A DNA stretch of 62,406 nucleotides, counting the filler, from Vannella sp. (lineage: Eukaryota), in NCBI GenBank assembly GCA_023345925.1. It is 8 parts of 8 records of this genome, joined end to end, with 100 filler letters (N's around TTAATTAATTAA, not from the genome) between each part and the next. Parts side by side here need not be neighbours in the genome. Positions count along the whole stretch, not along the records: positions 1 to 12,224 come from JAJQQN010000876.1; 7 more parts are not named here. The stretch is one strand, 5' to 3'. This document shows positions 87 through 28,708 of the stretch, piece by piece (the stretch's first letter is position 1; each line of letters starts with the position of its first letter). The position numbers were made by a program, and so were the translations under genes. Below the pieces are notes generated by a model. The model worked only from the letters and a program-made list of their open reading frames with translations. It had not been told where the DNA came from and did no database searches.

Positions 87-1412
87 ATGAATTCTCCTCC
101 ATTGGACTGGAAGTGTGAGATCGCCCACAGAGAGCTGCAAGTGATCTTAGACCAGTGTGTGCAAGAGGAAGATCTCAATGACAAGTCAGAATCGTTCCTT
201 GTTTACTCCTCCTCGATACGATACGCCAGAATGTCAGAGATTCTACTTAGCACAGTTTTTTCTAGTAATTCTAAATACTGGAATGCAGCGGCCTTCTTGT
301 CTCGGTTCTCTTCGCTCGAGTACCTTCATTTGCAACGAATCGATTTACCAAAAAGTGCCAAATGTGATTTGCTTCAATTGCTTCCGGCAGTTTTTCCGAG
401 GTTGAGAAGTTTCCAGTTTATTCATTCTCGGTCGGACAATCATTGCTTGCGTCTCATCTCGGATCTGCTCAATCACCTCCCACTGGAATCCTTGGACATA
501 GCTGGAAACGCATTTACACACTCAGGATTGGCGTTTTTAGCAGCTAATTTACGATCCAATCAATCATTGAAAAGCCTCTCCATCAGTAGCAATCTCATTC
601 CATTGCGATTCCAAGGGGAGCACTCTTATCATCAAGGAATGCGCCCTCACTGGGAACGCGATTACGGCCAAACTGCTGAGAAGGTCCATGATAGTGACTT
701 CGAAAATACACAACGCATGCTGGATTCTTGGCTGGGTACTTACGGAGTCGACACGCTTTTAGAATCCCTCGCAGAAAACTGCTCTCTTCAATTGCTGGAT
801 CTTGGCTATAACGAAATCGAGATTTCATACGTCCAGCAATCCACTTGGCAAAAGCTTAGAAACCAGAACGACACGATTAAGTGGCTCTTGCTGCAAGAAG
901 TGGCAATGGGAGAAGAGGAAGAAAGTGAGTTCAACGGCTTACAATATCTCCCACCTTCAGTGATTTATCTGGATCTCTCCAAAAGCGTCAACACAGAAAG
1001 CATTGTGATTGCAAGGAGCCTCTTATCTGCTTCAAGGAACTTTGATTCTCTCGAAGTGCTGGATCTTTCGGAGTGCGAGCAAGGCTTTGATCAGACATTC
1101 GCCATCCTTCTTTCTGCCCTGCTGAGGATGAGAAGGCTTACAAGCCTCAATCTCAGCTCAAATTCACTCCATGCCGCCCAAGCTCTGGCCATTGTGACAC
1201 TTTTGCTCCAGCATCCGACTTTGAATTCGGTCATTCTCCGCCAAAATTTCCTGAGGGGCAGTGCTATTGCTTTGGCTCTCACAATGTTTCAACACAGAAT
1301 CCTGCCACTCTTTATGGACTTGAGAGAGAACGACATTCTCCCAGAGGATCTTCTCAGAATGGGCACCCAACCAACACCAATCCATATCGACATTCAACTG
1401 ATTGATGAGTAA
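87..1412 (+). CDS. Leucine-rich repeat protein, ribonuclease-inhibitor (RNI)-like
   Basis: 441-aa intronless ORF with repeated LxxLxLxxN units (LESLDIAGN, LKSLSISSN, LQLLDLGYN, LTSLNLSSN). Confidence 0.8.
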   Translation: MNSPPLDWKCEIAHRELQVILDQCVQEEDLNDKSESFLVYSSSIRYARMSEILLSTVFSSNSKYWNAAAFLSRFSSLEYLHLQRIDLPKSAKCDLLQLLPAVFPRLRSFQFIHSRSDNHCLRLISDLLNHLPLESLDIAGNAFTHSGLAFLAANLRSNQSLKSLSISSNLIPLRFQGEHSYHQGMRPHWERDYGQTAEKVHDSDFENTQRMLDSWLGTYGVDTLLESLAENCSLQLLDLGYNEIEISYVQQSTWQKLRNQNDTIKWLLLQEVAMGEEEESEFNGLQYLPPSVIYLDLSKSVNTESIVIARSLLSASRNFDSLEVLDLSECEQGFDQTFAILLSALLRMRRLTSLNLSSNSLHAAQALAIVTLLLQHPTLNSVILRQNFLRGSAIALALTMFQHRILPLFMDLRENDILPEDLLRMGTQPTPIHIDIQLIDE

Positions 1413-1701
1413 AGAGACTCAACCCATTCCCAATTCTCTCCTCCTGGAAGTTCTCGAGAAGAGGAACATTTCGAATCTTCTTTTGCCTTGACACTCCCTC
1501 CATACATGGTGCCATGGGTTAGGTGGTCTCAAGTTGTCCAAAACAAAACAGAGATGAAACAGACTTCGTTTAAAGTAGTTTCGGAGTCCGAAGCGAATTG
1601 TAGGGAATTGCTGGATGAAGTCTTTGCGCATCTCCGGCATATTTATTCCTGCGGACTTGAAATAGATGATCCGTGAGGCCATCCCTTCATTATGGGAGAA
1701 G

Positions 1702-1848
1702 CGGTTTATAAAAACTAGCCATAACCATCCCTGGTTCCCATTGTTTTGTGAGCTGTGGTTATGGTTCATTCAGAAGAAGCAATAGCCATCCCGAAGACAC
1801 CCGAAATCCTTACGGCTTATAAAAACTAGCCATAACCATCCGTGGTTC
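1702..1848. repeat. 36-bp direct repeat, two copies 111 bp apart
   Basis: CGGTTTATAAAAACTAGCCATAACCATCCCTGGTTC (1702-1737) versus CGGCTTATAAAAACTAGCCATAACCATCCGTGGTTC (1813-1848); 34/36 identical. Confidence 0.9.
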
Positions 1849-1906
1849 TCACCCTGATTGAACTCGCGGTCAATCAGTTTTAGAAAGTCATTGTGAAAGG
1901 ATTCAT

Positions 1907-3568
1907 TCACTTCCGAAAGTTCAATTGAATCGCCATGCGAATGGGATGAAGTGTGAGTGAGGGAAGCATGACTGGGACAGGGCCGTTCGCACAAAGCGTA
2001 ATTTGGCAGGATGACAACATGCGCCAAACGATTATCTTCAATTCAATGAGGGCCAAGCGCATTCCGATGCAGCTGCGTGGAGCTCCTCCAAAAGGCAGAT
2101 AATGGAGACTCTGCTCCTCGCTGAGAGGAACTAAGAATCTCTGAGGACGGAACTCTTCAGCATCGTCACCCCAGGCCTTCTTATTTCTCTGTAAAGCCAG
2201 AATGCTGATAAAGATCTCACTTCCGGCAGGAATTGAAGTCCCGCAGATATCTGTTGGAACAATTGAGGTTCGTCCGATGGATGCAGGTGGATAGAGCCGA
2301 AGAACCTCTTTGATTACAGCAGAAAGATACTTCAGCTTCTCAAGGGAGGTAGTAGTTGGCTCCCTTCCCCCGAGGACTTCGTCCAGCTCGCACCGAACTC
2401 GTTCTTGAATCTGGGGATGCTTTCCAAAAAGATAAAGCATCCAGGCCATTGTGGACGCTGTCGTGTCGTGCCCGGCAAAGACGAGCCCAACGCACTCATC
2501 CCGAAGTTGGAGCGCTTCCATCTTCAAGGAAGGTTTGTCAGATTCATCAACTCCTTCCTCAATCATAAGGGATAAGACATCCTCAAACTCCTCCCTCTTT
2601 TGGGGGGACATCCTTAAGCGCTGCTCAATCAATCCAGCAATTCGTGACTTCAAACGATGCAAATGTCGCCAATACCGGATGTTTGCGGGTGTTGGAAGAT
2701 ACTGCCAGAACGGGAATACGCTATCTTGCCATATCTTCCATCCAAGCATGGCTAGAACTACATCAAATGACTCTGCCAAGCTACCATGGAATGGCTCACT
2801 GAAAGTGTACATCCCAATTGTGTCTGAAGTCAGCGATATCATCTCATGGAATGGATCCAATGTTAAACAAAGCACCCCATTGCTATCAACACATGCCAAT
2901 TCTCTCCACTCCTCAATCCGATCGAGTATAAGTCGATCAACGATAGAAATAGCTCTCTGTAGCGTTCGTACAGCGAATCCCAGCTCCAGGATCTTAGTTG
3001 AAAGATCACAAAGACCATTAAGCATGCTACATAGGCTACCAATCAAGGAACACTCACCTTTCGATGCTTCTTCCAGGTGGGACCGGAGACAATCAAGAGA
3101 CTGTCTCCCAGCAGCGGTCTGGACAGCTCATAACCAAAGTTCTTCCGGTAGGATACTCCATCAGAAGCAGAACAGACTGCACGGACCTCTTCTCCTCCTT
3201 GTAGACCAACGAAGGGGACAAGGCCAACGAATCTATGCGAGTGAGCCTTCCCTCTCCCTCCAGAGGCACTCCCATACTCACCCAACGTAGATCGGTCCGT
3301 ACTTTTGTGTGTTAACAATCGCTTCTTGACCAAGAGCGACCATACCGTCCTCCCCGCGCATCAAATACCGAAGGATGGCCCACGTTCGTCCCCCCAGTAG
3401 CCAATGCAAGCCTGCTACAGGGACTGAACAGCTCAGAGCTTGGTTCCTTTGAAACACAACAGAGAACTGCCGAACCAAGCGGACGCCCACCAGGAGTACC
3501 AACAACGCGATCATCGTCACTCCTAGCTCCCCCACCTCCCACATCCGCCCCCAATTGACTCCCTTCAT
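1907..3568 (-). CDS. Cytochrome P450, at least 2 introns
   Basis: N-terminal TM anchor, I-helix AGHDTT, K-helix EVLR, FRPQRF and heme motif FGGAPRSCIG. GTGAGT...AG introns near 3233-3281 and 2993-3057 join three ORF pieces. Confidence 0.95.
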
Positions 3569-3576
3569 GTCTCCTT

Positions 3577-3980
3577 ATGATACGGAGGGATCGTTCTTTT
3601 CGAGTTCTCTTGGAGATAAAGATACGAAGGCCAGTTGGGACATTCTGGAGACGAAAAGGTGTTCTTTCCCATCAGCAGTATCCCTTGCATCGCGCCCTCA
3701 CTTTGAGTGAAGAAGGTGCGTGGAATTGGGATACGCAATTGGGGGACGTCGATCAGCCTGCAAACGACTTGGAAATGCCAGAAGAGGCTTTCGCGATATT
3801 TGTCTAGGAGGGAACCACTCTCTCCTTTTCGATGTTTGTCCAGGAGGGAACCACTCTCTCCTTTTCTTACCGAAAGGAAATCTTTTTGTTTTTGGATACA
3901 ACTGCGATGGGACTGTTGGCTTCAACACGACTGACAATCATTCCATTCCCACCATCTGCCCACTTGTAAGCAACTTCTGA
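3577..3980 (+). pseudogene. Degenerate RCC1-repeat fragment
   Basis: RCC1-like pieces in different frames: DTEGSFFS, SWR*RYEGQLGH, TQLG, and VCPGGNHSLLFLPKGNLFVFGYNCDGTVG. They are separated by a stop and frameshifts. Confidence 0.55.
3794..3866. repeat. 36-bp tandem duplication
   Basis: CGATATTTGTCTAGGAGGGAACCACTCTCTCCTTTT followed directly by a copy with 2 mismatches. Confidence 0.9.
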
Positions 3981-4224
3981 ACGAGGGACGGAAACAAGAG
4001 GGTGAGGGTTTATTGAAAAATTAATCTGAATAGAATCGGATCAGGACCATTCCTATGTAACACCACTCAGCTGGCTCCCGTCATCCTGTCCTCTGCAAAC
4101 GGAAGAGCGCTCGTTTCTAAACTTCGCTCTTTCTGTGAGCTCCCAAGGACACCCGGGACTCCAGATTCCCTTCGACTCTTTGCTGATGGTCCAAGTTAAC
4201 AGGGTAAACGCAAGTTTATAGGAA

Positions 4225-4845
4225 TCAGAACATGTCAAAGTTAGAGTGGTCAATCAAGTCTAACACTGGAGTATGTTGCACATTGTCTCCTCCCCAGTCA
4301 AATAGTGGTTGTTGGTTGTTCAATTGGAAACGATCTGGGCGACTGCGCGAGAAAACGAACGCCCGTCGAGAAGGAGATGGCCCTTGAATGCCTCGTTCAT
4401 ACCAAACGAAAGAGTAGTGAGCTTCTAACAGACTATCCGAGGCTTGAATGAGCCACGTCCTGAGAGGCAAGTTTTCGGCAAAGAGATGGGCGTGCTCCAC
4501 TTCGCTTAGCGATAAATGAAGAGAACCATCCACTGAGGTCAGGTTGGCGAATGAGACTAGCTGGGGCAATCCCCAATCAGTTCCTGGACGGAGGTCCAGA
4601 GGATGTACGCAACCTCTTATGAATGAAGAGTGGCCTGAGCGTGGGGGTTCTTGTGAGGGAACAGAGTCCCAAGTCTGAAACGAACCCAAGCCCAAATGAG
4701 CTTCAAATTCCTTCACCGCAGCAGCTTGCGAGGAAGTCAGCCCGTGGGCTGCAAACATGAGAGATATGCAGGAGAATTGTTCCTTCGCGGCCGATCGAGA
4801 TGAGATTACTTTTAGCTCTTTCTCCTTATATGGACAATTCTTCAT
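4225..4845 (-). CDS. Hypothetical protein (structure uncertain, possibly spliced)
   Basis: 206-aa ORF with no recognisable motif. Confidence 0.3.
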   Translation of the reverse strand: MKNCPYKEKELKVISSRSAAKEQFSCISLMFAAHGLTSSQAAAVKEFEAHLGLGSFQTWDSVPSQEPPRSGHSSFIRGCVHPLDLRPGTDWGLPQLVSFANLTSVDGSLHLSLSEVEHAHLFAENLPLRTWLIQASDSLLEAHYSFVWYERGIQGPSPSRRAFVFSRSRPDRFQLNNQQPLFDWGGDNVQHTPVLDLIDHSNFDMF

Positions 4846-5085
4846 GTTTTGAACCCCGTCGGTCCATCAGCTCTTCAAAGCTTGCAAATTATCCAATTGA
4901 TAGTCATTTTGTGAAGCGGAAAGCCTTCTTTTGTGGAACTCCTTTTCTGGACAACGTTTACTTGAATGATTGCCGATCGTGCGATTCTCATTGACTGAAG
5001 TTGCGATTAGCAATCAACCCAATTCGGCACAAACTCCGTGGAATCGCGATTGCGATTGCGGCTGAGATGATTTCATGATTGCCAA

Positions 5086-5594
5086 TCAACCAGTTACATT
5101 TTCCTTCGCATTGAAGTGGTAAGCACTCCGGCCCCTTCCTGATATGTTGTACCGGACTCCTACCTCCTCGAACAACTGTTCAGCGGAACTCTTCCAGAAT
5201 GGCCCAATTTGATTTTGATCAATCTGAGGTTGCTGTGAGCACTCATCGTTGTTGAAGAGGGAGGACAACTGCTTCACTTGATATATTTTGGACCCTTTTG
5301 CTCTCCTTCTCTCAGTCCAAGTGCAATTCGCACAGCAACGCCCTCTTCAAGTGATGGCGATCGAGGAACGAGCACTGCATCAGATTCACCCTCTCCATTG
5401 CCCACAGAATCAGAATCATCAGTATGTACGCTCTCCTCAAGCAATCTCGAAAGCCGCTCGTCATCAATCAGCTCCTCGGCCAGTCCTCTTTTCTCCATAA
5501 GCCCTTTCCTAATCGTCTCCGTATTCGCCTCATGGTGGCTGGCTTGGTTGCTTAGGCCGTAGAATAATCGGCCCATCAACGAGACAGAACGCAT
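5086..5594 (-). CDS. Hypothetical protein (possibly spliced)
   Basis: Two abutting ORFs (106 and 63 aa) with an acidic, protein-like segment; no motif. Confidence 0.3.
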
Positions 5595-5810
5595 CCTTTC
5601 ATGCTGACGAGAACGTGCTCAGATCCCCCTATTTCTTTTCACTTCCCTTCTCATAAACGTGGCCAATTAGGCCCTCGCATCGAAAAAGCTCAACTTTCAA
5701 TCCAATCTGCAGATGCGTTTTTTGGCAGCTCCAGCCACATCTGCCACCTAATGGCCGTTCCATGAATTCCAACTCTATCCTGGGACATTCTAGAGCATGA
5801 TAAGTGCGCT

Positions 5811-6568
5811 TTAAGCTTTGGAAGAGCGAGAGAAGGTGGACTTGAAAGCTTCTCGAGCTGTCAAACGCTCCTGATAGGCGATGATCGCTGGATAGTCAAC
5901 CAGGAGCTCTCCCTTTCGGATGATCGATGCCCACCACACGTTGTACCCAATCTGAAGCAGAGGTGAGCCCACCAGAAGAGAAGGGAAGGAAGGGGCGCAC
6001 CACGCAGTCTGCCACGGTGAAGTGGTCCCCACAGATCCACTGTTTGCCCTCCAAATGGGCATTGAGAGTGCGGGCGAATGTAGTGAAGCGCTTGCGCTGC
6101 TTGCTGATCAGAGCCTCATCACGCCTCTCTTCGGGAGTGTGAGTCAGCTGCATGTAGAGCGGCTCCAGGATCTGGTCTCCAGTACTAGTGGCAAGAAAGA
6201 TCCACTAAAGATCCAATGGCAGTGTCAGGCGGTGTTGGGAAGACGTCAGGAGTGCATACATTGAAATAGGAACCCGCCTCCCCTTCCCTTGGAAGGAGGC
6301 TTCGCGCAGCTGCTTCGGATTGGTACAAATCAGCGACATACATGCAGATCGCTCCACTCTCAAGTAACAGCTCCCCATGGGGAAGCCTCAAAGCAGGAAT
6401 CGTACGGAAAGGATGAACTTCTCCGTAGGCTTCGAGGGCTGCCGGGTTCCCATGCAACGACACCTTTTCCACCTCAAACTCGCTCTCCTTTCCCAACTCT
6501 GCAATCACCCAAGCACAGCGAGAGGAACGGAAAGGGTAGCTGTGGTAAAGGACGTGGCGTTGGCTCAT
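5811..6568 (-). CDS. Glutathione S-transferase, 3 exons
   Basis: MSQRHVLYHSYPFRSSRC..., HPFRTIPAL (cis-Pro loop), ESGAICMY and GDHFTVAD N-cap. Introns GTATGC...TTTAG and GTGCGC...TTCAG restore a full ORF ending in TAA at 5811. Confidence 0.93.
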
Positions 6569-6735
6569 AAGGAGACGGGACAGAATGAGGGGGAAATGCC
6601 CTTTTGACCAATCCCCAGAGGTCAAGAACCCAAATGGCTTGAGTGTGATGCACGTTTAGACATGGAAAGTAAGAGATACCGGACTGGGTCAAAGGAGGTG
6701 ATCCGCAACACCGCCTTTGGCTGAACGTCGTACTC

Positions 6736-6776
6736 CTCAATGGAAGGCGGCCAAGGCTTTAAGCCTTCCACTTCAT
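6736..6776 (-). promoter_or_regulatory. Eukaryotic SECIS element (type II) in the selenoprotein 3' UTR
   Basis: Minus strand ATGA-AGTGGAAGGCTT-AAA-GCCTTGGCC-GCCTTCCAT-TGAG fits AUGA-N12-AA-N20-GA. It has a 9-bp helix II (GTGGAAGGC/GCCTTCCAT) and an apical mini-stem GCC/GGC. Confidence 0.9.
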
Positions 6777-6829
6777 AGGATTGGTTTCTCACACAAACCA
6801 TGAATGACGTGCCAAGACGAAGACTCGTC

Positions 6830-7173
6830 TTAAGGGGAGAACCCTGCTGCCTGCATGGCAGCCACGGTTTCACCCGCAGCAGGGAACTTGCCGGTGGTTA
6901 GCTTCGACCAGAACTCTGTCAGTCGGATGAGAACTAGAAAAGACCTTCCTTGTAAGCCACTCACGGTTACCACTGTCATCAGTGATCTCGAAGGCGCTCC
7001 CTCTGGGTTTCTTGAGGTTCCCCTCCACCACCGCAGAAGGCCACACAGCCTTGATTTCGTCTCGGATTTTGTTGAATACTCTGCTGTATCCTCACATGGT
7101 GCTGCCCAACCATCAGAAGTCTCCCTAACCTCTCAAAAGCGACTCACCAGTACTCAATGTGGATTCTCGGCAT
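6830..7173 (-). CDS. SELENOW-like: Selenoprotein, SelW/Rdx family (CxxU), 82 aa; exons 7173-7148, 7101-6965, 6915-6830
   Basis: Spliced product MPRIHIEYCTMUGYSRVFNKIRDEIKAVWPSAVVEGNLKKPRGSAFEITDDSGNQFWSKLTTGKFPAAGETVAAMQAAGFSP*. In-frame TGA at 7094-7092, Rdx motifs FEI and WSKxxxGxFP, and a downstream SECIS. Confidence 0.92.
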
Positions 7174-7362
7174 TGCGACGACAAATAAATGAACGAGAAG
7201 GAGCCAATCGGGAACTCCTTCAAACCAAAATTTTCGGAACTTTTCAACTCCGAAAAAATGAACCCCAAAGGCCTCCGAATCTTAGATTTGTCATTCATTT
7301 GTGATATCGGAGCAATTTCCAGGTGGAATCGGCTCGGAAAGATCAAAAGAGCATTCTTTCTG

Positions 7363-9034
7363 ATGCGGGCGGGCTTGGTGTTGCTGCTGGGGCTTGTGTT
7401 GGCTGTGACAGCCGATGATTTGCGTCCTCAGTATCATGCGGTGCCTCCATCAAACTGGATGAATGACCCGAATGGGCCGATCTTCTACAAGGGGCTGTAT
7501 CATCTCTTCTTTCAGTACAACCCGGACGCCGCGGTCTTTGGTGTCATCAATTGGGGCCACATGGGTGAGTGAGAGCGCTATTCGGTGTGCGCATGCTCTG
7601 AACCCCCGTAGTGAGCTCTGATTTGATCCAGTGGCAGTGGAAGGGCGTGGCCTTGACACCCGGAGAGAACATCTCCGACCCAGACCACACGGGATGCTGG
7701 ACTGGAAGTGCAGCCATCGACACCACAGGAACAAACCTCCCAACTATCATCTACACCGGTGTCCGCACTCCTGATCACTTGGAGAGTCAAATGATCGCCG
7801 TGGCAAAGGATGACGAGATCTCCTCCTGGGTCAAGGCGGACAGCAATCCTATCATTGCAGAACCTCCGTTTAAGGAGCTACCTGGTAGAGTTAGCGGATT
7901 CCGGGATCCCTCCTTCTGGTTCGATGAAGAACTTGGCCAATGGAGGATGATTATCGGTTCGGGTGTGAAAGGAGTGGGCGGGTACATCCTCATGTACACA
8001 GCAGACAAGTTACAGGGCCCTTGGACATACCAGAACCCCCTTTATTACAACAACAACACCCAGTATCATGGGGACATGTGGGAGTGCCCGGACTTCTTCG
8101 AACTCTCCACTATTTCAGGCAACTCCTCTCGCTGGGTGCTCATCTTTGGTGACGATAGAGCACAAAGGAACTTCTACATGATCGGAGCCTTTGACAAGGT
8201 AGCAGGGGTCTTCATTCCAGACCCTGCCTTCCAAAGGGGAGGCCTCATCTTGGATGCAGGCAACTACTACGCTTCGAAGACGATGCTGGATTCCAATAGC
8301 GGCCAGCGTATTCTTTGGGGATGGAGTCCTGAAGCTCGTACCCAAGCTGCCTACAAAGCTGCCGGATGGGCGGGAATCCAAACCATCCCGCGAGTTCTCG
8401 CACTTTGTGAAGATCTCTCAACCCTTCACTTCGCTCCAGTTCCCACTTTGGATGGCATAATCAAGTAAGATCAAAAAACGAGTCAAATGAGCCCTTCTGA
8501 GCTCTTGTCCAGCGGCTTTGCCCAGTCGGGCAACCAAGTCAAAATCAGAGCTTCTTTCCGTTTCCAAACTGGAAGTGAGCAGGTGCGTATCCTTGCAAGA
8601 GAATGTATGCCTTTTCTGAGGAGTTATGCAGGAGGTTGGGCTTTACGTGTTCAAGTCGAGTGACAAAAGGGAATTCACAAAAATCTCTTTTATCCCCAAA
8701 ACCCGGATGCTGACTATTAGCCGGAACGCTTCTTCTCTTTCCCCTGAGGCTGACTCATCTCCCATCTCTCTTGTGGTCCCAAGAAATGAGGTGAAAGACA
8801 ACGAGCTCTATTTAATTGTTCTCCTCGACCACTCCATCATCGAAGTGATCGCAAATAGTGTGGCCTGTATCACTGCGTGAGTATATTCCCTCTTCCCCAC
8901 ATAGAAACTCACAAAGGAGACCAGCCGGGTCTATCCCACTCTTCCCGATAGCACAGGCATCCAATACTACTCGCCCCCCTTCTCCGCCGCCATCGTCGCT
9001 TTCCGGAGCATTTACTCGTCTTGAAACAGACTGA
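7363..9034 (+). CDS. Secreted GH32 beta-fructofuranosidase/invertase, about 4 introns
   Basis: Signal peptide, [31 protein letters not shown] and C-terminal LLDHSIIEV. Confidence 0.95.
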
Positions 9035-9111
9035 CATGAATCCCGTTGTTTCCCATCTATTGGCACCCTTTTCATCGTTCAAAGCTTCATTGAGACGTTT
9101 GGAGAAGCCTG

Positions 9112-11911
9112 CTAGTCAGACCACTCATCATTGTCGACCATGTCATTGAATTCAGAGTAGTTGGCGCCAACGGGAACGACAACCTCGCCTTCCTTGAAGT
9201 TGTTGGTGACCTTATTGAAGAAGCCGTCCATCACTTGCTCCTTGGAGACGCCACCAGTCCCACGTTTGGCCTGCTCTGCATCAAAGTCGTACTTGCGCTC
9301 ACGCTCGATCTCAGGGGCCTCGGATAAGTTGGTCATATCTGCTGGCTTGTAACTCTTCACGGGTCTTTGAGCGTTTCGTCCTTGCATCCAAGCTTGTGCG
9401 GTCAGTGCAGGCTCATCGGTTGGCATGTCAGTGTAGATGTCATCCTGGAAGAACTCTTTCTAGAAAGGGAGGAAAGTGAGGAGAAGCGCGAGACAGAGGG
9501 AATGCAGATTCACTTACTCTGGTGCGTGGAACAGTGAAAGAGAGAGGTTGGACGTTCTTAGTAGTGAGCTTGAGCATGTACGCAATCTCCACATTACGGA
9601 CATCACACGAGCGACGAGGAAGGACAGCCACACCGACTTGAGGCTCTGCAGTTTGGAACTTACTGAGCAAGTGAGCAAAAGGTGCCTCGTCCACAATCTC
9701 AAAGTAAGAGATCGTTCCATCACCCTTTCCAAGGATGTAGAGGATGCTGGTGCCCTCGTCAAAGTAAGGAGTGATAACACCCGAAGCAGTGTCCAAGGCA
9801 ATGGTGCCCACAGGCTCACTGAAACGTCGCACATCCCAAATAGAGAACTGACGCTCGCTAGTCTTCGAGAAGCCAGCGCTAATGATCTTGTCCTGCCCTC
9901 CCATCCAAGTAATCTTGGTGGACTTGGCGCCCTGATGGCAGTCCGCCTCTGCTGTTACCGTGTTGGATCGAGGATCGCACACGCGGAGCTTCTTATCCTT
10001 CGAGGCAGCAGCAAAGCAGCTTCCGTTGTAGTTCCATTGGAGGCTCTGCACGTAGTCAGGGATGCCTTTGAAGGTACTGGTGGCCTCTGTAGAGGCTTCA
10101 ATGTCCCAAAGCTTGACTGTCATGTCATAAGAGGCAGAAGCGAGCAGAGAGGAAGCGACGGGGTTGAAGGTTGTGAAGATCACCTTCGAGTAGTGACCAC
10201 TTAAGGTGGTCTCAGCGGTCCGATAGTTAGTCTTCTGACTAGACAGGCCAACAGGAACCTTCCAGATCTTCACCTGGGCGTTCTCCAAGCCTGTGGCGAG
10301 GATGTCATCGTTGAAAGGGTTCCAGTCCAGATCTAACTGGTTGGATCCGCACTCAATCAAGCCAGGAGTGTCAGAGACACGATAAGGCTTGGTGATATCA
10401 AACACACCAACCAAGCCACCCGCTCCACTCCAAGGCACACAGAACCACTTCTTGTTGGCCTTGATGGACTCCGTCTCTGAAGAGGAGTTGTCCGCTTTGA
10501 CGTTCTCGAAGAACTGGCTGCGTTGAACGAACTTGCCAGCCACGTGGCGGTACTTGGAAGAGCGCACGATGTTGAGCTTGGGCAGCTCCTTCTTGCTGGC
10601 GCGGGCTTCTTCCTCACTTGCAAGGCGTTCAGCCTCTTCAGCGTCCTTCTTTGACTGCTCCTGTTCCGCTTCAGTGACTCCTGCGGTCTCTGGGTGCAGG
10701 CTGACTAACACAGGGTCAGCATTCGAGCCCTGGAACCAAGCACTGGCGTCCAGGGCGGCGATGGGACCGGGAGTGTTGGGGAAGAGGTCGTCAGCAAAGT
10801 GTACCTTGGATTTGCGAGGCACTGTGAAAGAGACAGGTGCCACAGCGTTGGCAGTGAGCTTGAGGACCCTGGCAACCTCGCAGGCCATCACATTCAGGCT
10901 TCGCTTGGGTGCGAGGCAAGCAGACTTGGTGGGCACGTCAGACACGCACTGAGCAAGCTCACTAAGGTCTCCTTCACTGTGCTCAAAGCAGCGGATGTTG
11001 CCGTCGCCCATACCAGCCAAGAAGAGCATGTCAGTGTCGCCATCGTAAAGAGGTTCCAGGATGCCCGTGGAAGAGTCAATGTTGATGGTCTTCACTGGTT
11101 TGTTGAGTTCTCTTTGATCCCAAACCATCAACTGGCGCTCTCGCATACGAGAGAAGCCGGTAGTGGCAAAGAAAGAAGACTTTCCTAACCAAACAGCCCG
11201 AGAAGCTTTCACTCCTTGGTGTCCTTCTACCTGCTTCTCACCAACGTCTAGTTAGTTCGTAAAACCAATCAAGGATCACGAAGAACCAACCTGAACAGCC
11301 TGTTGTGCACGAGGGTCCCAGATGGAGACAGTCTTGTTGGCTGTAGTCGCAGCAAAGAGACTTCCGTTGTAGTTCCACGATAGCCCTTGAATGAAGCCAT
11401 CTAGCTCACTTCGGAGGGATGCACGTCCAGCTTCTACGTCCCACACGAGTGCTTGTCCGTCGTTGCCACCCGAAAGGAGAACATTGGAGGCTGTTGGGTG
11501 CCAGCGAAGGACTGCCACACGTTTCTTGTGGTCTTGAAGGTCTGCTCGAGCCTCAGAGAGGTCTTTTGTGAGCCCTTCGGCGGGGAGAGACCACAAACGG
11601 AGGCGACCATCATCAGCTCCTGTCGCCAGAAGGTTGTCGTCATGTGGGGAGAACTGCAAATCGAAGATTTGGGCAGAGTGAGCGTGAATCTTAGCAGGCT
11701 CTGTCTTCTGCTTGCCTGTCTGAGAGGAAGCGAGGACAGAAACGGCGTTTCCGCTTTCAAAGACCACCGCCACATGCTGGGTAGATGCTGCGATGCATTG
11801 GGCATCGGATGCGGACACAGAAGGACGAAGGTCGACCATCCACTCATCTCTGCGAGCCAATAGCCCAGTGGCATGACGGTACTTTGATGAGTTGCGGAAC
11901 CGAGACGACAT
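9112..11911 (-). CDS. CORO7: Coronin-7 (tandem coronin), 2 introns
   Basis: Two coronin WD propellers, each starting SKY/FRH, with signatures GDGNIR/GDGTIS and SFTVPR. Acidic C-terminal DNDEWSD tail. Confidence 0.93.
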
Positions 11912-12224
11912 CAGAAAGGCAGGAAAGAAGTGAGCCGTTTGAGCCCACAAAGATGGATCATGTTCACTTGAGAAAGAGTTTATTGCCAAAGAGAGAGAGT
12001 TCATACAAGGACGACAGTGTAGATCTGAGAAGACAGGTTAGTTTTCAAGTGACAAAGGATCATGCGCTTGGAGGGTAGGAAGATGTCAGTATTTTACATC
12101 TATAGTTACTATCATCTTGGTTCAATGTAGCTGGTTGGGTCATCACGATGATCCCACCCATCCAAGCGCGCATGCAACTCACCTCGACAGAAAAAAAGTG
12201 ATTGCCAGGACAAATTTCTGAAAG

Positions 12225-25542: not shown

Positions 25543-26757
25543 TCACACCTTGGGGGTGAACGTCAATAAGGCAGATCCCACAGCAGTGTCGGCTCCTCCG
25601 TAGTACAAGAGGAAGGTGTCAACTCCCACTTGCTCCCACCCTTCACAAAAGACCACATTGGGAGTGAGAGAGTGGACACCGATCTCCCACCCCAGCTCAG
25701 GACTAAGGAGGGGCTCGCTCGAGCGAGCAAGGATTTTGGTGGGATTGTCCCCATCAAGAACGGCCCATCCAATGTTATACTGCAGGAAGTAACCAGGCTT
25801 GGAGCTGGGGAATCCGGTGCGGGCAGAATTGTAGATGAAGAGGTAGTTGCCATCGGAAAGGAGAAGCGGCATTGGACCGGCTTCCACCAAGTCACTATCA
25901 AAGAAGTCTTTCCGGACGGGCATCCAAACCTCCTTCCCACTGACAAAGTGAATCATATCGTTAGTCCACGCTACTTGAAGGCCAGGAACATAGGAGGAGT
26001 CTCCATAGAAGAGGTAACTGGGTCCAGAATAGCCATCGCGGCACAGAAGTGCTCCAGACTTAGTCCACTGCGTCCCATTACTGTCCTTAAAGATGGGCCC
26101 GTGCCTTTTCCACTTCAAAGGATCAGTAGCTGTGGCTAACGATAACCTCACGTTGACAAAGGAGTCGTTCCCCTGCTGGACAGTTTGAACCGCACTAAGA
26201 CAGTCAATCTCCAAAGTGCCACGGCAGTTTGAAAGGAAGGATTGTTCACTATACCTGTAGAGAAGATAGTACATCTGATTGGATTCACGGAAGGTAACCC
26301 GAGGATCCTCCGTCCCGGCAGTTTCATACCAAGTCTCTGGCTCGAACACCACAGAAGAGGGCGTTATTGGGTCCACTTGGAAGCTATAAGAAGACCGATC
26401 ACTCAGGTTACTTGTAAATCCAGTCAAGGACATCACAGAAGGAGAGACAGCAAAAGGTTGCGGAGGAATGTAAGAACTGCTCTCATTCTGTTGGCACCGA
26501 ACAAGCAGCTTCTTTGCCCCTGGAGAAGCTTTTGACGGTCCCACAAAGGCAGGGTTGTAATTGTACGCAAAGGAGGAGTCAGAAGGACGAGTTTGACTGG
26601 TCCCCAGTCAGACAAGAAAGGAGAACAAGCCAACGTACGAGTCAATAAGAGGGCGCATTCCGTTCATCCTTTGAATGGTAAAATCATAACCCTGGCTCGT
26701 ATGGCAAACAACAAACGCCGCGAAACCAATCCCCAGGACCAACATGTTCCACTCCAT
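25543..26757 (-). CDS. Secreted GH130-family glycosidase (5-bladed propeller)
   Basis: Signal peptide, YNPAF, EDPRV, KSGAL, VEAGPMP, PNVVFCEG and YYGGAD; at least two short introns. Confidence 0.85.
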
Positions 26758-27168
26758 CTCCAAGCCGAACCCAAAAACTGTCCTTCTGGAACCTTCCAAT
26801 TCATCATCTCCTGGAGACCTTGAAGCGAGGGTTCTTGATAGACCATATAGGAACTAGAGACCTCCAGCAACCACCTGGCGGTCATGCTGTCACCGAAGAT
26901 GAAAGAGGATCCAATTGTCTTCATCCAACCCAGCGCCACAGCTGTCAATCCTTCGACGAGAAGCCAACCCCCTACAACTGAATAGTTTCTAGTCCTTCAA
27001 AGCGAGAGTACTGATGAGGACTCTATCAGTAAAGGAGAAAAGGTCCTCTGACCACCTGTTCATCCCACAAAGGTTTAAAAAACTACATTTTAACCAAAAC
27101 TCCACAGCTGTGATGTTTGCTAATGTGAGCGAAATAAACTTGCCATTTGGTCGAGCCAGCTCGTTGCT

Positions 27169-28708
27169 ATGCAGGTTCTCCGTTCTGCTGGACGCGCCTC
27201 CGCCCTTGGGCTTGCCCAAGTCCGCGGTAACAGCAAGATCTCTCAGATCATTCCCGACCTCTCTGCTCCCATTTTCCGCCGCCTGGCCAAGGTAGAGACA
27301 CTGGGAAACGGCATCCGTGTGGCCACCTACCCTGTAGAGTGCACCAACGCTGCCTCCGTTACTCTTCACGTTAAGACTGGAAGCAGATACGAGACAGAAG
27401 AGAACAACGGTGCTAACTTCTTCATTGAGAAGCTCGCTTTCGCTGTAAGTACCACCCCTGGTCACCCCCTTTTTTCCCCCTCTCGTGGGTGATCCCCCGC
27501 TCTTCTCTCCTCAACGTAGACTACCGGGAGGAGCATGAAAGTCGCTGATTATTCTTAAAAAATAGGGAAAGTCTCCTTCAGGCAAGAAGTCGCTCGCCGA
27601 GGCTATTGAGGACATCGGTGGCCACGTGCACCTGGACCACGGCAGAGAGCACACATCGTACACGATCAATGTTGAGGCCTCTCAGCTCCGTGTTGCTACT
27701 CAACTGATGGCTCAAATGGTGAACAACCTTTACAACATCACCCCTGACCAGGTCGAGGCTCTCCGCTACAGAGTTCTGAACGAGAAGGCTGTTCTGGAGA
27801 ATTGCGTGAACAATCAATCCCTTGACCACTTGCACGCTGTAGTGTATCAGCAAGGATCGTTGGGTCTTCCCATCCAAGGCAGCACCACCAACATCCAGAA
27901 GATGAACGCTCAGACTCTTTCCAATGTCGTTAACCGCTTCTACACTGCCGATAACATCAGTTTGGCTGTTGCTGGTGATGTTATTCCCTCTGAGTTTACC
28001 AAGGAGGCTGCGGAAGCATTCTCGAAGGTGTCCTTGTCTCGTGAAGCGATCTCTTCTGAGCCCTCGCGATACTTTGGTGCATTTGTCAACGACCGAACTG
28101 ATAGCTCCTCGGACAACGCCCAAGTAACGATCGCGTATGATGGCTGCAGCATTAGCTCTAGTGACGCGGTTCTTCTTTCTGTCGTTCGTGAGATCGTTGG
28201 CGACTACGACAAGTGGAGCGGAGTTGGAAACAACAGCTCCAGCCGCCTGGCTGAAGTCGCTGGTACTGAGAACCTTGCCGACTCTTTCCAGACCTTCTCC
28301 CAGAGCTACAGCGATGCTGGTCTCTTCGGAGTCACCGTGGCCACTCAAGGAAAGAACCTGGATAACCTCATCTGTGAGGTTTGCTCTGAGTTTGTGCGAT
28401 TGGCTCACAATGCTCGTCCCTCCGAGGTTGCTCGTGCCAAGCTCGCCCTCCAGAACAAGGTACTTCTCGGCCATGATGGTGTGAGCACTCTCAGCCGCAA
28501 GACCGCGTTCGAGACTGCTCAAGCAGGCCAAAACCACACTCTCAAGTCCAAGTTGGACCTGATCGATGAGGTCACTGTCGAACGTGTTCGAGACCTTTGC
28601 ACCAGAAAGTTCACGGATACCGAGCCTGGATTAGTCGGCATCGGAAGCACCCACTGGCTACCTGACTACAACCAAGTCCGTGGATGGACTCACTGGTGGA
28701 GAATCTAA
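27169..28708 (+). CDS. Mitochondrial M16 family protein, MPP-beta/complex III core 1 type, with degenerate zinc motif; intron 27445-27565
   Basis: Arg-rich presequence, TLGNGIRVAT, GSRYETEENNG, YSDAGLFG and C-terminal LPDYNQVRGWTHW. HxxEH is replaced by FFIEK. Confidence 0.9.

What the first reader, a model, noticed from the sequence alone, without database searches (positions are those of the whole stretch)
6830..7173. Hidden selenoprotein: SelW/Rdx-type gene whose CxxU motif is built by splicing
Seen in sequence: three minus-strand exons with canonical 46- and 49-nt GT-AG introns give 249 nt. The Cys codon is split by intron 1 (TG|C) and followed by ACC ATG TGA, giving IEYC-T-M-U-GY, then FEI and WSKLTTGKFP. 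Established: this is the thioredoxin-like Rdx (SelW/SelT/SelH) pattern with UGA read as selenocysteine. Inference: the organism has a working Sec recoding system. Ordinary gene callers would miss the gene, and the ORF track shows only antisense shadows here.
Basis: partly seen in the sequence, partly recalled or inferred. Interest (0 to 1): 0.9.

Follow-up and report, generated by a model that had tools for sequence, protein, structure and literature searches.

The report
Spliced selenoprotein W gene in amoeba
A small three-exon gene, likely from a freshwater amoeba, is spliced as predicted and keeps an internal UGA "stop" that is very likely read as selenocysteine, making it a real but ordinary new member of the known selenoprotein-W family.

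Summary
Observation confirmed. An RNA contig from an independent freshwater metatranscriptome skips exactly both GT-AG introns with no mismatch in 262 nt and keeps the TGA (only 22 nt lie on the exon-1 side). The 82-aa product scores 59 bits on a SelW/Rdx profile, against at most 6.3 for shuffles and -0.5 unspliced. Exons 2 and 3 hit TIGR02174 colinearly. TGA is otherwise a stop. Two marker trees suggest a discosean amoeba. The splicing angle is overstated: the TGA is genomic, only the Cys codon is split, and mammalian SelW has its first intron at this same spot (PMC3316567). Sec machinery could not be tested, as no genome is held. The scan has found SelW-like selenoprotein genes on other DNA before. 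Verdict: genuine new member of a known family; I found no SelW reported for Amoebozoa.

The parts
7148..7173 (-). Exon 1 coding part (ATG to the first two bases of the Cys codon)
   Evidence: 7148-7169 lies in the RNA contig. The upstream frame has a stop and no in-frame ATG after it.
7102..7147 (-). Intron 1, 46 nt, GT-AG, phase 2, inside the Cys codon
   Evidence: skipped in the RNA contig (short side 22 nt)
6965..7101 (-). Exon 2 (rest of C-x-x-U, helix, FEI strand)
   Evidence: Pfam Rdx 17.6 bits, E 0.0045; TIGR02174 22 bits at profile 8-47
7092..7094 (-). In-frame TGA, predicted selenocysteine 12
   Evidence: Aligns with the Sec/Cys column of homologues; kept in the RNA contig
6916..6964 (-). 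Intron 2, 49 nt, GT-AG
   Evidence: skipped in the RNA contig (short side 103 nt)
6830..6915 (-). Exon 3 coding part with TAA stop (6832-6830)
   Evidence: TIGR02174 12.3 bits at profile 54-72, colinear with exon 2
6724..6786 (-). SECIS-like element in the putative 3' UTR: AUGA core at 6776, apical AAA 12 nt on, 10 consecutive pairs in helix II, partner GA at 6738
   Evidence: Rfam SECIS_1 20.9 bits, gathering 35, E 0.64; only hit of my pattern in the window; spacings 12 and 20 nt, upper stem -13.6 kcal/mol. Not covered by the RNA contig.

Best explanation
This is a transcribed, spliced nuclear gene whose internal UGA is very likely read as selenocysteine, giving a predicted 82-residue SelW-type redox protein in what is likely a discosean amoeba. 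Shown: two short GT-AG introns are removed and the RNA keeps UGA at codon 12. Inferred from established eukaryotic Sec biology: the 3' hairpin (core about 266 nt after the UGA) is a SECIS that binds SBP2 and recruits eEFSec with Sec-tRNA, so the ribosome inserts Sec and reads on to the UAA. Inferred from the family: the product takes a minimal thioredoxin-like fold with Cys9-x-x-Sec12 exposed after the first strand. It would act as a cytosolic thiol/selenol oxidoreductase, cycling through a selenenyl-sulfide and attacking oxidised cysteines of partner proteins (14-3-3 for mammalian SELENOW; partner unknown here). When selenium is short, UGA would end translation after 11 residues, 127 nt upstream of the last exon junction, which would likely expose the mRNA to nonsense-mediated decay.
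For: Both junctions and the TGA in one RNA contig with 0 mismatches, from a study other than the best DNA holders. Profile from 109 of 121 motif matches (12 short or interrupted ones dropped): spliced 59.1 bits, intron 2 retained 32.9, intron 1 retained -0.2, unspliced -0.5, truncated at TGA 12.7; best shuffle 6.3 among the 1755 of 2000 reported. Similarity runs on about 60 residues past the TGA, 40-47% identity over 72-75 aa. Independent curated models hit exon 2 and exon 3 in order. SECIS: one pattern hit in the window, on the right strand, 53 nt after the stop; null 10 hits in 7.41 Mb of Markov sequence. It meets the SECISearch spacing and energy limits given in PMC2375036. Three of 13 comparison SelW loci gave SECIS_1 scores of the same size, 20.3-21.6 bits. 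Code: 0 TGA among 8802 codons of 14 long ORFs with 150 TGG and 201 TGY; 7 of the 14 end in TGA. Amoebozoa are known to use Sec (PMC2375036; PMC4561486; PMC11459619).
Against: No Sec machinery shown: no genome held; no tRNA; no machinery family among the Pfam hits of 116 ORFs of 105 aa or more, nor of the 9 frames near the gene. The SECIS is below Rfam's gathering score, drops out of the whole-window scan at E<=10, folds only moderately (z -1.6; 7 of 200 shuffles as stable), has a weak helix I, and is not covered by the RNA contig, which ends at 6813. My SECIS pattern was written after seeing the candidate, so its null rate is optimistic. The profile was built from loci chosen by the same N-terminal motif, which inflates the exon-1 contribution. 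The codon count uses stop-free ORFs and is partly circular. No close orthologue was found to show conservation of TGA or SECIS. Exon 2 alone is under the Pfam and NCBIfam cut-offs.
Confidence: 0.92

Rival explanations
1. UGA is a plain stop: the gene is a decaying or silent SelW relic in a lineage that has lost Sec, giving an 11-residue peptide or an NMD substrate.
For: Machinery not seen; SECIS below the Rfam threshold and not shown in RNA; no orthologue to show purifying selection.
Against: Intact frame across three exons, exact splicing in RNA, full-length family similarity after the TGA, and a well-placed hairpin with the right core and spacing.
Confidence: 0.05
2. UGA is read as Cys or Trp, through a changed genetic code or unspecific read-through, giving a Cys- or Trp-type Rdx protein.
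For: 37 of 99 motif-bearing database homologues have Cys at this column and 58 have Trp, though the Trp cases are probably UGA translated with the wrong code (inference).
Against: No TGA among 8802 codons of long ORFs, including a 1911-aa frame, and TGA closes several apparently complete genes. A SECIS would be unnecessary.
Confidence: 0.02
3. On origin, compatible with the main reading: the gene came by horizontal transfer from a bacterial SelW-like gene and later gained introns and a eukaryotic SECIS.
For: The best pairwise hits are bacterial-looking sequences (39-47%), above putative eukaryotic ones (36-38%). One free tree placed it among bacterial-looking rows without support.
Against: The comparison set is dominated by bacterial-looking loci. 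Trees on 81-88 columns give it no starred group. Holding it with 14 putative eukaryotic rows is not rejected (p-AU 0.63; log-likelihood 5.45 higher). Its first intron sits where mammalian SelW has one.
Confidence: 0.12

Closest known systems
Selenoprotein W (SELENOW; mouse structure PDB 2npb) and algal/protist SelW; Rdx family, Pfam PF10262, NCBIfam TIGR02174
   Same: About 80-90 aa, N-terminal C-x-x-U-G-Y, downstream FEI strand and SK..TG.FP segment, 3' UTR SECIS, first intron at the start of the CxxU motif (PMC3316567 section 8). A profile holding exons 2 and 3 with six homologues finds 2npb at E 1e-8 and MIEN1 2ljk at E 2e-18.
   Different: Two coding introns of 46 and 49 nt against five coding exons in mammals. 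No close sequence relative (best 47%). Host likely amoebozoan; Dictyostelium lacks SelW (PMC2375036 Table 2). Orthology to SelW1 rather than SelW2/MIEN1 is not resolved.
Bacterial SelW-like selenoproteins (TIGR02174 CXXU_selWTH)
   Same: Same motif and length; highest pairwise identities, 39-47%.
   Different: This gene has spliceosomal introns, a eukaryotic-type 3' UTR SECIS and eukaryotic neighbours.
SelT, SelH and SelW2/MIEN1 (Rdx12)
   Same: Same Rdx superfamily and CxxU/CxxC site.
   Different: No signal peptide or hydrophobic insertion (SelT), no long basic N-terminal extension (SelH), no C-terminal CaaX (MIEN1). These defining features are recalled; their absence is read from the 82-aa product.

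Membership tests
Rdx (SelW/SelT/SelH) family | C-x-x-U/C motif after the first strand near the N-terminus | tested here: met
   Cys9 and TGA at codon 12, junction seen in RNA; aligns with the homologues' motif
Rdx (SelW/SelT/SelH) family | Full-length similarity to family members beyond the Sec codon | tested here: met
   59.1 bits on my own profile, profile positions 2-72, shuffles at most 6.3; 36-42% identity to proteins labelled PF10262
Rdx (SelW/SelT/SelH) family | Score above the curated cut-off of PF10262 (22.6) or TIGR02174 (34.2) | tested here: inconclusive
   Only single exons were scanned: exon 2 gave 17.6 (Pfam) and 22.0 (NCBIfam); exon 3 gave no Pfam hit and 12.3 (NCBIfam); colinear at 8-47 and 54-72. 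The whole product was not scanned against the libraries.
Rdx (SelW/SelT/SelH) family | Thioredoxin-like fold | not tested
   No model was folded. Indirect only: profile A1 matches eight solved Rdx structures; exon 2 alone matched none.
Eukaryotic selenoprotein gene | In-frame UGA in the mature mRNA opposite Sec/Cys of homologues | tested here: met
Eukaryotic selenoprotein gene | SECIS consensus (NUGA, AA 10-13 nt on, GA 15-39 nt further; energy limits -12.6 and -3.7 kcal/mol) downstream on the same strand | tested here: met
   12 and 20 nt; -17.0 and -13.6 kcal/mol by ViennaRNA against the limits in PMC2375036. Rfam score 20.9 is under the gathering score of 35.
Eukaryotic selenoprotein gene | SECIS lies within the transcript | tested here: inconclusive
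   The RNA contig ends at 6813, 27 nt short of the element
Eukaryotic selenoprotein gene | UGA is otherwise a stop codon in the organism | tested here: met
   0 of 8802 internal codons; 7 of 14 long ORFs end in TGA (partly circular)
Eukaryotic selenoprotein gene | Sec machinery (tRNA-Sec, eEFSec, SBP2, SPS2, PSTK, SecS) in the genome | not testable with these tools
   No genome held; none seen in the 62-kb window, which says little
Eukaryotic selenoprotein gene | Selenium in the protein | not testable with these tools
   Needs 75Se labelling or mass spectrometry
SelT, SelH or MIEN1 subfamilies | Signal peptide with membrane insertion (SelT); basic N-terminal extension (SelH); CaaX tail (MIEN1); features recalled | tested here: not met
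   The 82-aa product has eight residues before the Cys, no insertion and no C-terminal Cys

The most novel reading that the evidence does not exclude
This is the first SelW-type selenoprotein described for Amoebozoa, and its intron inside the catalytic Cys codon is the same intron as intron 1 of mammalian SelW, kept since the common ancestor of amoebae and animals. Free-living discosean amoebae would then carry a larger, hidden selenoproteome than the five-protein set of Dictyostelium suggests.
Probability: 0.35. Interest if true: 0.45.

Novelty: new member of a known kind. Interest (0 to 1): 0.33.

Why it matters
It is a clean, RNA-supported case of a gene that ordinary callers miss, and it likely extends SelW to a poorly sampled amoebozoan lineage; the studied amoebozoan selenoproteome, Dictyostelium's, lacks it. 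A shared intron position with mammals would argue for vertical descent and later loss in slime moulds. A single-cell host with a minimal SelW could help settle what SelW does, which is still unclear. It shows no new mechanism: SECIS-directed Sec insertion, SelW proteins and codons split by introns are all well known.

Tried and rejected
Whole-genome search for Sec machinery: no genome held. phmmer of exon 2 against 1.84 billion representatives: one weak hit to a 225-aa protein over 24 residues (E 1.4e-4), not followed up; no close orthologue. Exon 2 against PDB sequences: three chance-level hits, E 0.44-1.2. A weak Pfam hit of exon 2 to AvrRpt-cleavage (E 0.08, 14 residues) was taken as chance. 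ESM Atlas gave no answer for the coronin marker. Six alternative intron-2 splice pairs: lower score and not used in RNA. No second Rdx gene in the window's six frames. SelW trees: unresolved. The codon count had three ORFs on the wrong strand and was discarded and redone; the SECIS scan was unaffected. Runs X5 and X6 do not cover the gene. Run X4 shows no other long match in 1000-12200; this says nothing about expression levels. Runs X3-X6 hold small shares of the words, so their habitat labels are not used as evidence beyond the laid X4 contig. Of 13 comparison loci scanned for SECIS, 10 gave none, among them putative eukaryotic L034, L040 and L073. Paper searches: selenoprotein+Acanthamoeba+SelW 0 papers; selenoprotein+Vannella 18 papers, the 10 listed unrelated; SEPW1 gene-structure search uninformative; Tiarina contamination search gave 2 listings, not read. 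The spliced product was not folded.

Full report
Observation. The minus strand carries an ATG at 7173, a 46-nt intron (7147-7102), a 137-nt exon, a 49-nt intron (6964-6916) and a last exon ending in TAA at 6830. The coding total is 249 nt, or 82 residues. Both donors are GTGAGT and both acceptors CAG. Intron 1 splits the Cys codon after two bases. The TGA at 7094-7092 lies wholly in exon 2 and is the only in-frame stop. Unspliced, the frame closes after eight codons.

Splicing. Six runs hold the stretch. One is a freshwater metatranscriptome (X4) from a study other than the two best DNA holders. A 262-nt X4 contig lies on 6813-6915, 6965-7101 and 7148-7169 with no mismatch, so it skips exactly the two predicted introns and keeps the TGA. 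DNA run X1 holds the unspliced form (6844-7395). Limits: it is a single contig; the exon-1 side is 22 nt, under the tool's 31-nt rule; it reaches neither the ATG nor the SECIS. Of seven possible in-frame choices for intron 2, the one in RNA is also the best scoring.

Family. Exon 2 alone hits Pfam Rdx (17.6 bits, E 0.0045, cut-off 22.6) and TIGR02174 (22 bits, positions 8-47). Exon 3 hits TIGR02174 at 54-72 (12.3 bits) and nothing in Pfam. 109 matches were open for at least 55 residues and look like SelW; 12 were dropped as short or interrupted. On a profile of the 109 the spliced product scores 59.1 bits over positions 2-72. Controls: intron 2 retained 32.9, exon 2 only 21.1, truncated at TGA 12.7, intron 1 retained -0.2, unspliced -0.5, best shuffle 6.3. 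The set shares the N-terminal motif by selection, but similarity also covers the FEI and C-terminal segments. An alignment of six loci with exons 2 and 3 retrieved 139 proteins; 119 of the 120 listed carry PF10262. It also matched eight solved structures, including mouse SelW 2npb and MIEN1 2ljk. Among the 120, 99 have the motif: 58 Trp, 37 Cys and 4 others at the Sec column. The Trp cases probably reflect UGA translated with the wrong code (inference). No close orthologue turned up; best identity was 47%.

SECIS. Rfam's best hit in 5900-7700 is SECIS_1 at 6786-6724, minus strand, 20.9 bits (gathering 35), E 0.64 over 4227 families. It is not listed in the whole-window scan at E<=10. The core AUGA is at 6776, 53 nt after the stop. 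The apical AAA follows 12 nt later and the partner GA 20 nt after that. Helix II has ten consecutive pairs; energies are -13.6 (upper stem) and -17.0 kcal/mol. These values fall within the SECISearch limits given in PMC2375036 (passages read). The loop could form a short extra stem, as in type II elements (read from the sequence). My own pattern found this one site in both strands of the window; matched Markov sequence gave 10 hits in 7.41 Mb, or 0.0004 expected in 300 nt of one strand. The pattern was written after seeing the candidate, so that figure is optimistic. Folding alone is only moderately better than shuffles (z -1.6). For scale, 3 of 13 comparison loci gave SECIS_1 at 20.3-21.6 bits; two of the three appear to be the same gene, and 10 loci gave none.

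Genetic code. Fourteen long ORFs hold 150 TGG, 201 TGY and no internal TGA in 8802 codons, and seven end in TGA. Selection by stop-free length makes this partly circular, but a 1911-residue frame without TGA would be unlikely under reassignment.

Host. Neighbours are eukaryotic: coronin-7, GST, GH32, P450, an M16 peptidase, ArfGAP-PH and others. For the M16 peptidase, named relatives include Vannella robusta (43% by its cluster) and a sequence labelled Tiarina fusa. The tree puts the window sister to that group, without a star (90/83; 20 of the fetched proteins used, few named taxa). For coronin-7, the named top hits are mostly amoebozoan. The window falls in a starred 12-row group with the Stenamoeba cluster (SH-aLRT 98, quick tree of the top 33 hits). 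Its nearest labelled sequence (70%) is again 'Tiarina fusa', a ciliate label, and one further row of that group is labelled Chloroparvula, a green alga. I take both as amoebal contaminants of culture transcriptomes; that is inference, not checked. The host is likely a discosean amoeba.

Mechanism. Shown: transcription, splicing, UGA in frame. Inferred: SECIS-, SBP2- and eEFSec-dependent Sec insertion; a minimal thioredoxin-like fold; Cys9/Sec12 redox cycling on protein thiols. Mammalian SELENOW is reported to bind 14-3-3 through the Sec of CxxU (PMC8508763, start of abstract in a search listing). The UGA is 127 nt upstream of the last junction, so selenium shortage would likely trigger nonsense-mediated decay. 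Sec machinery could not be sought: no genome is held and none was seen in the window.

Comparison with what is known. SelW is documented in vertebrates (PMC3316567; passages and section 8 read) and green algae (PMC2375036 Table 2). Section 8 states that mammalian exon 1 gives nine residues ending immediately upstream of CxxU, which is where intron 1 lies here. That the mammalian intron is also phase 2 within the Cys codon is recalled and untested. So 'motif built by splicing' is no special device. Amoebozoa use Sec: Dictyostelium has five selenoproteins and no SelW (PMC2375036), SPS2 is scattered across Amoebozoa (PMC4561486, passages), and Acanthamoeba has a thioredoxin reductase treated as a selenoprotein and expressed recombinantly as one (PMC11459619, passages). 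I found no report of an amoebozoan SelW in searches (listings only, apart from the papers named; PMC6627142 passages gave nothing). I did not open supplements, the poster figure of PMC4561486 or SelenoDB, which may list one. Origin is unresolved: best hits look bacterial, but trees on 81-88 columns give no supported place, and grouping with putative eukaryotic SelW is not rejected (p-AU 0.63). The scan's own notes hold 239 findings with the words selenoprotein, SelW and SECIS in other genomes, none with amoeba-related words and none in this genome; these are unchecked notes.

Verdict. A real, spliced, very likely Sec-encoding SelW-type gene (0.92); new member of a known kind; interest 0.33.

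Noticed in passing
window 7174-7362 and 5743-6568: The gene sits head to head with a GH32 invertase-like gene (likely ATG 7363, + strand, 189 nt apart). Directly downstream on the same strand is a glutathione S-transferase (likely ATG 6568). A SelW next to a GST may be chance.
   Followed up: partly
window 5743-6644: One DNA contig of run X1 joins 5743 to 6644 with 29 other letters between, suggesting a variant without the GST gene; low depth, single contig.
   Followed up: no
window 6665-6747: Another X1 contig (322 nt) shares only this stretch, which includes the 3' arm of the SECIS, and then runs on unlike the window. A second locus or diverged strain; no second copy in the window.
   Followed up: partly
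window 6691-6704 (-): A 14-base stretch resembles the 3' end of bacterial 16S rRNA (recalled, not tested); probably chance.
   Followed up: no
window 5180-5212 and about 1750-1830: Short stretches with many contigs and high summed depth in the DNA runs: likely repeats or conserved motifs.
   Followed up: no
window 25543-26607 (-) and 7189-9034 (+): A GH130 family (mannooligosaccharide phosphorylase-like) gene and a GH32 gene in a likely amoeba; GH130 is mainly bacterial by recall, so a possible transfer.
   Followed up: no
window 9115-12037 (-) and 27124-28708 (+): Coronin-7 and the M16 peptidase have their nearest labelled relatives in a 'Tiarina fusa' transcriptome, which groups with amoebozoans in both trees: likely a contaminating amoeba in that data set.
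   Followed up: partly
proteins P0173-P0292: 58 of 99 motif-bearing public Rdx proteins carry Trp at the Sec position, probably UGA translated with the wrong code by gene callers.
   Followed up: no
L049:606-663, L081:3-59, L090:3-59; L016: Other unannotated SelW-like loci with SECIS-like hairpins; L016 holds two tandem SelW-like genes with UGA.
   Followed up: partly
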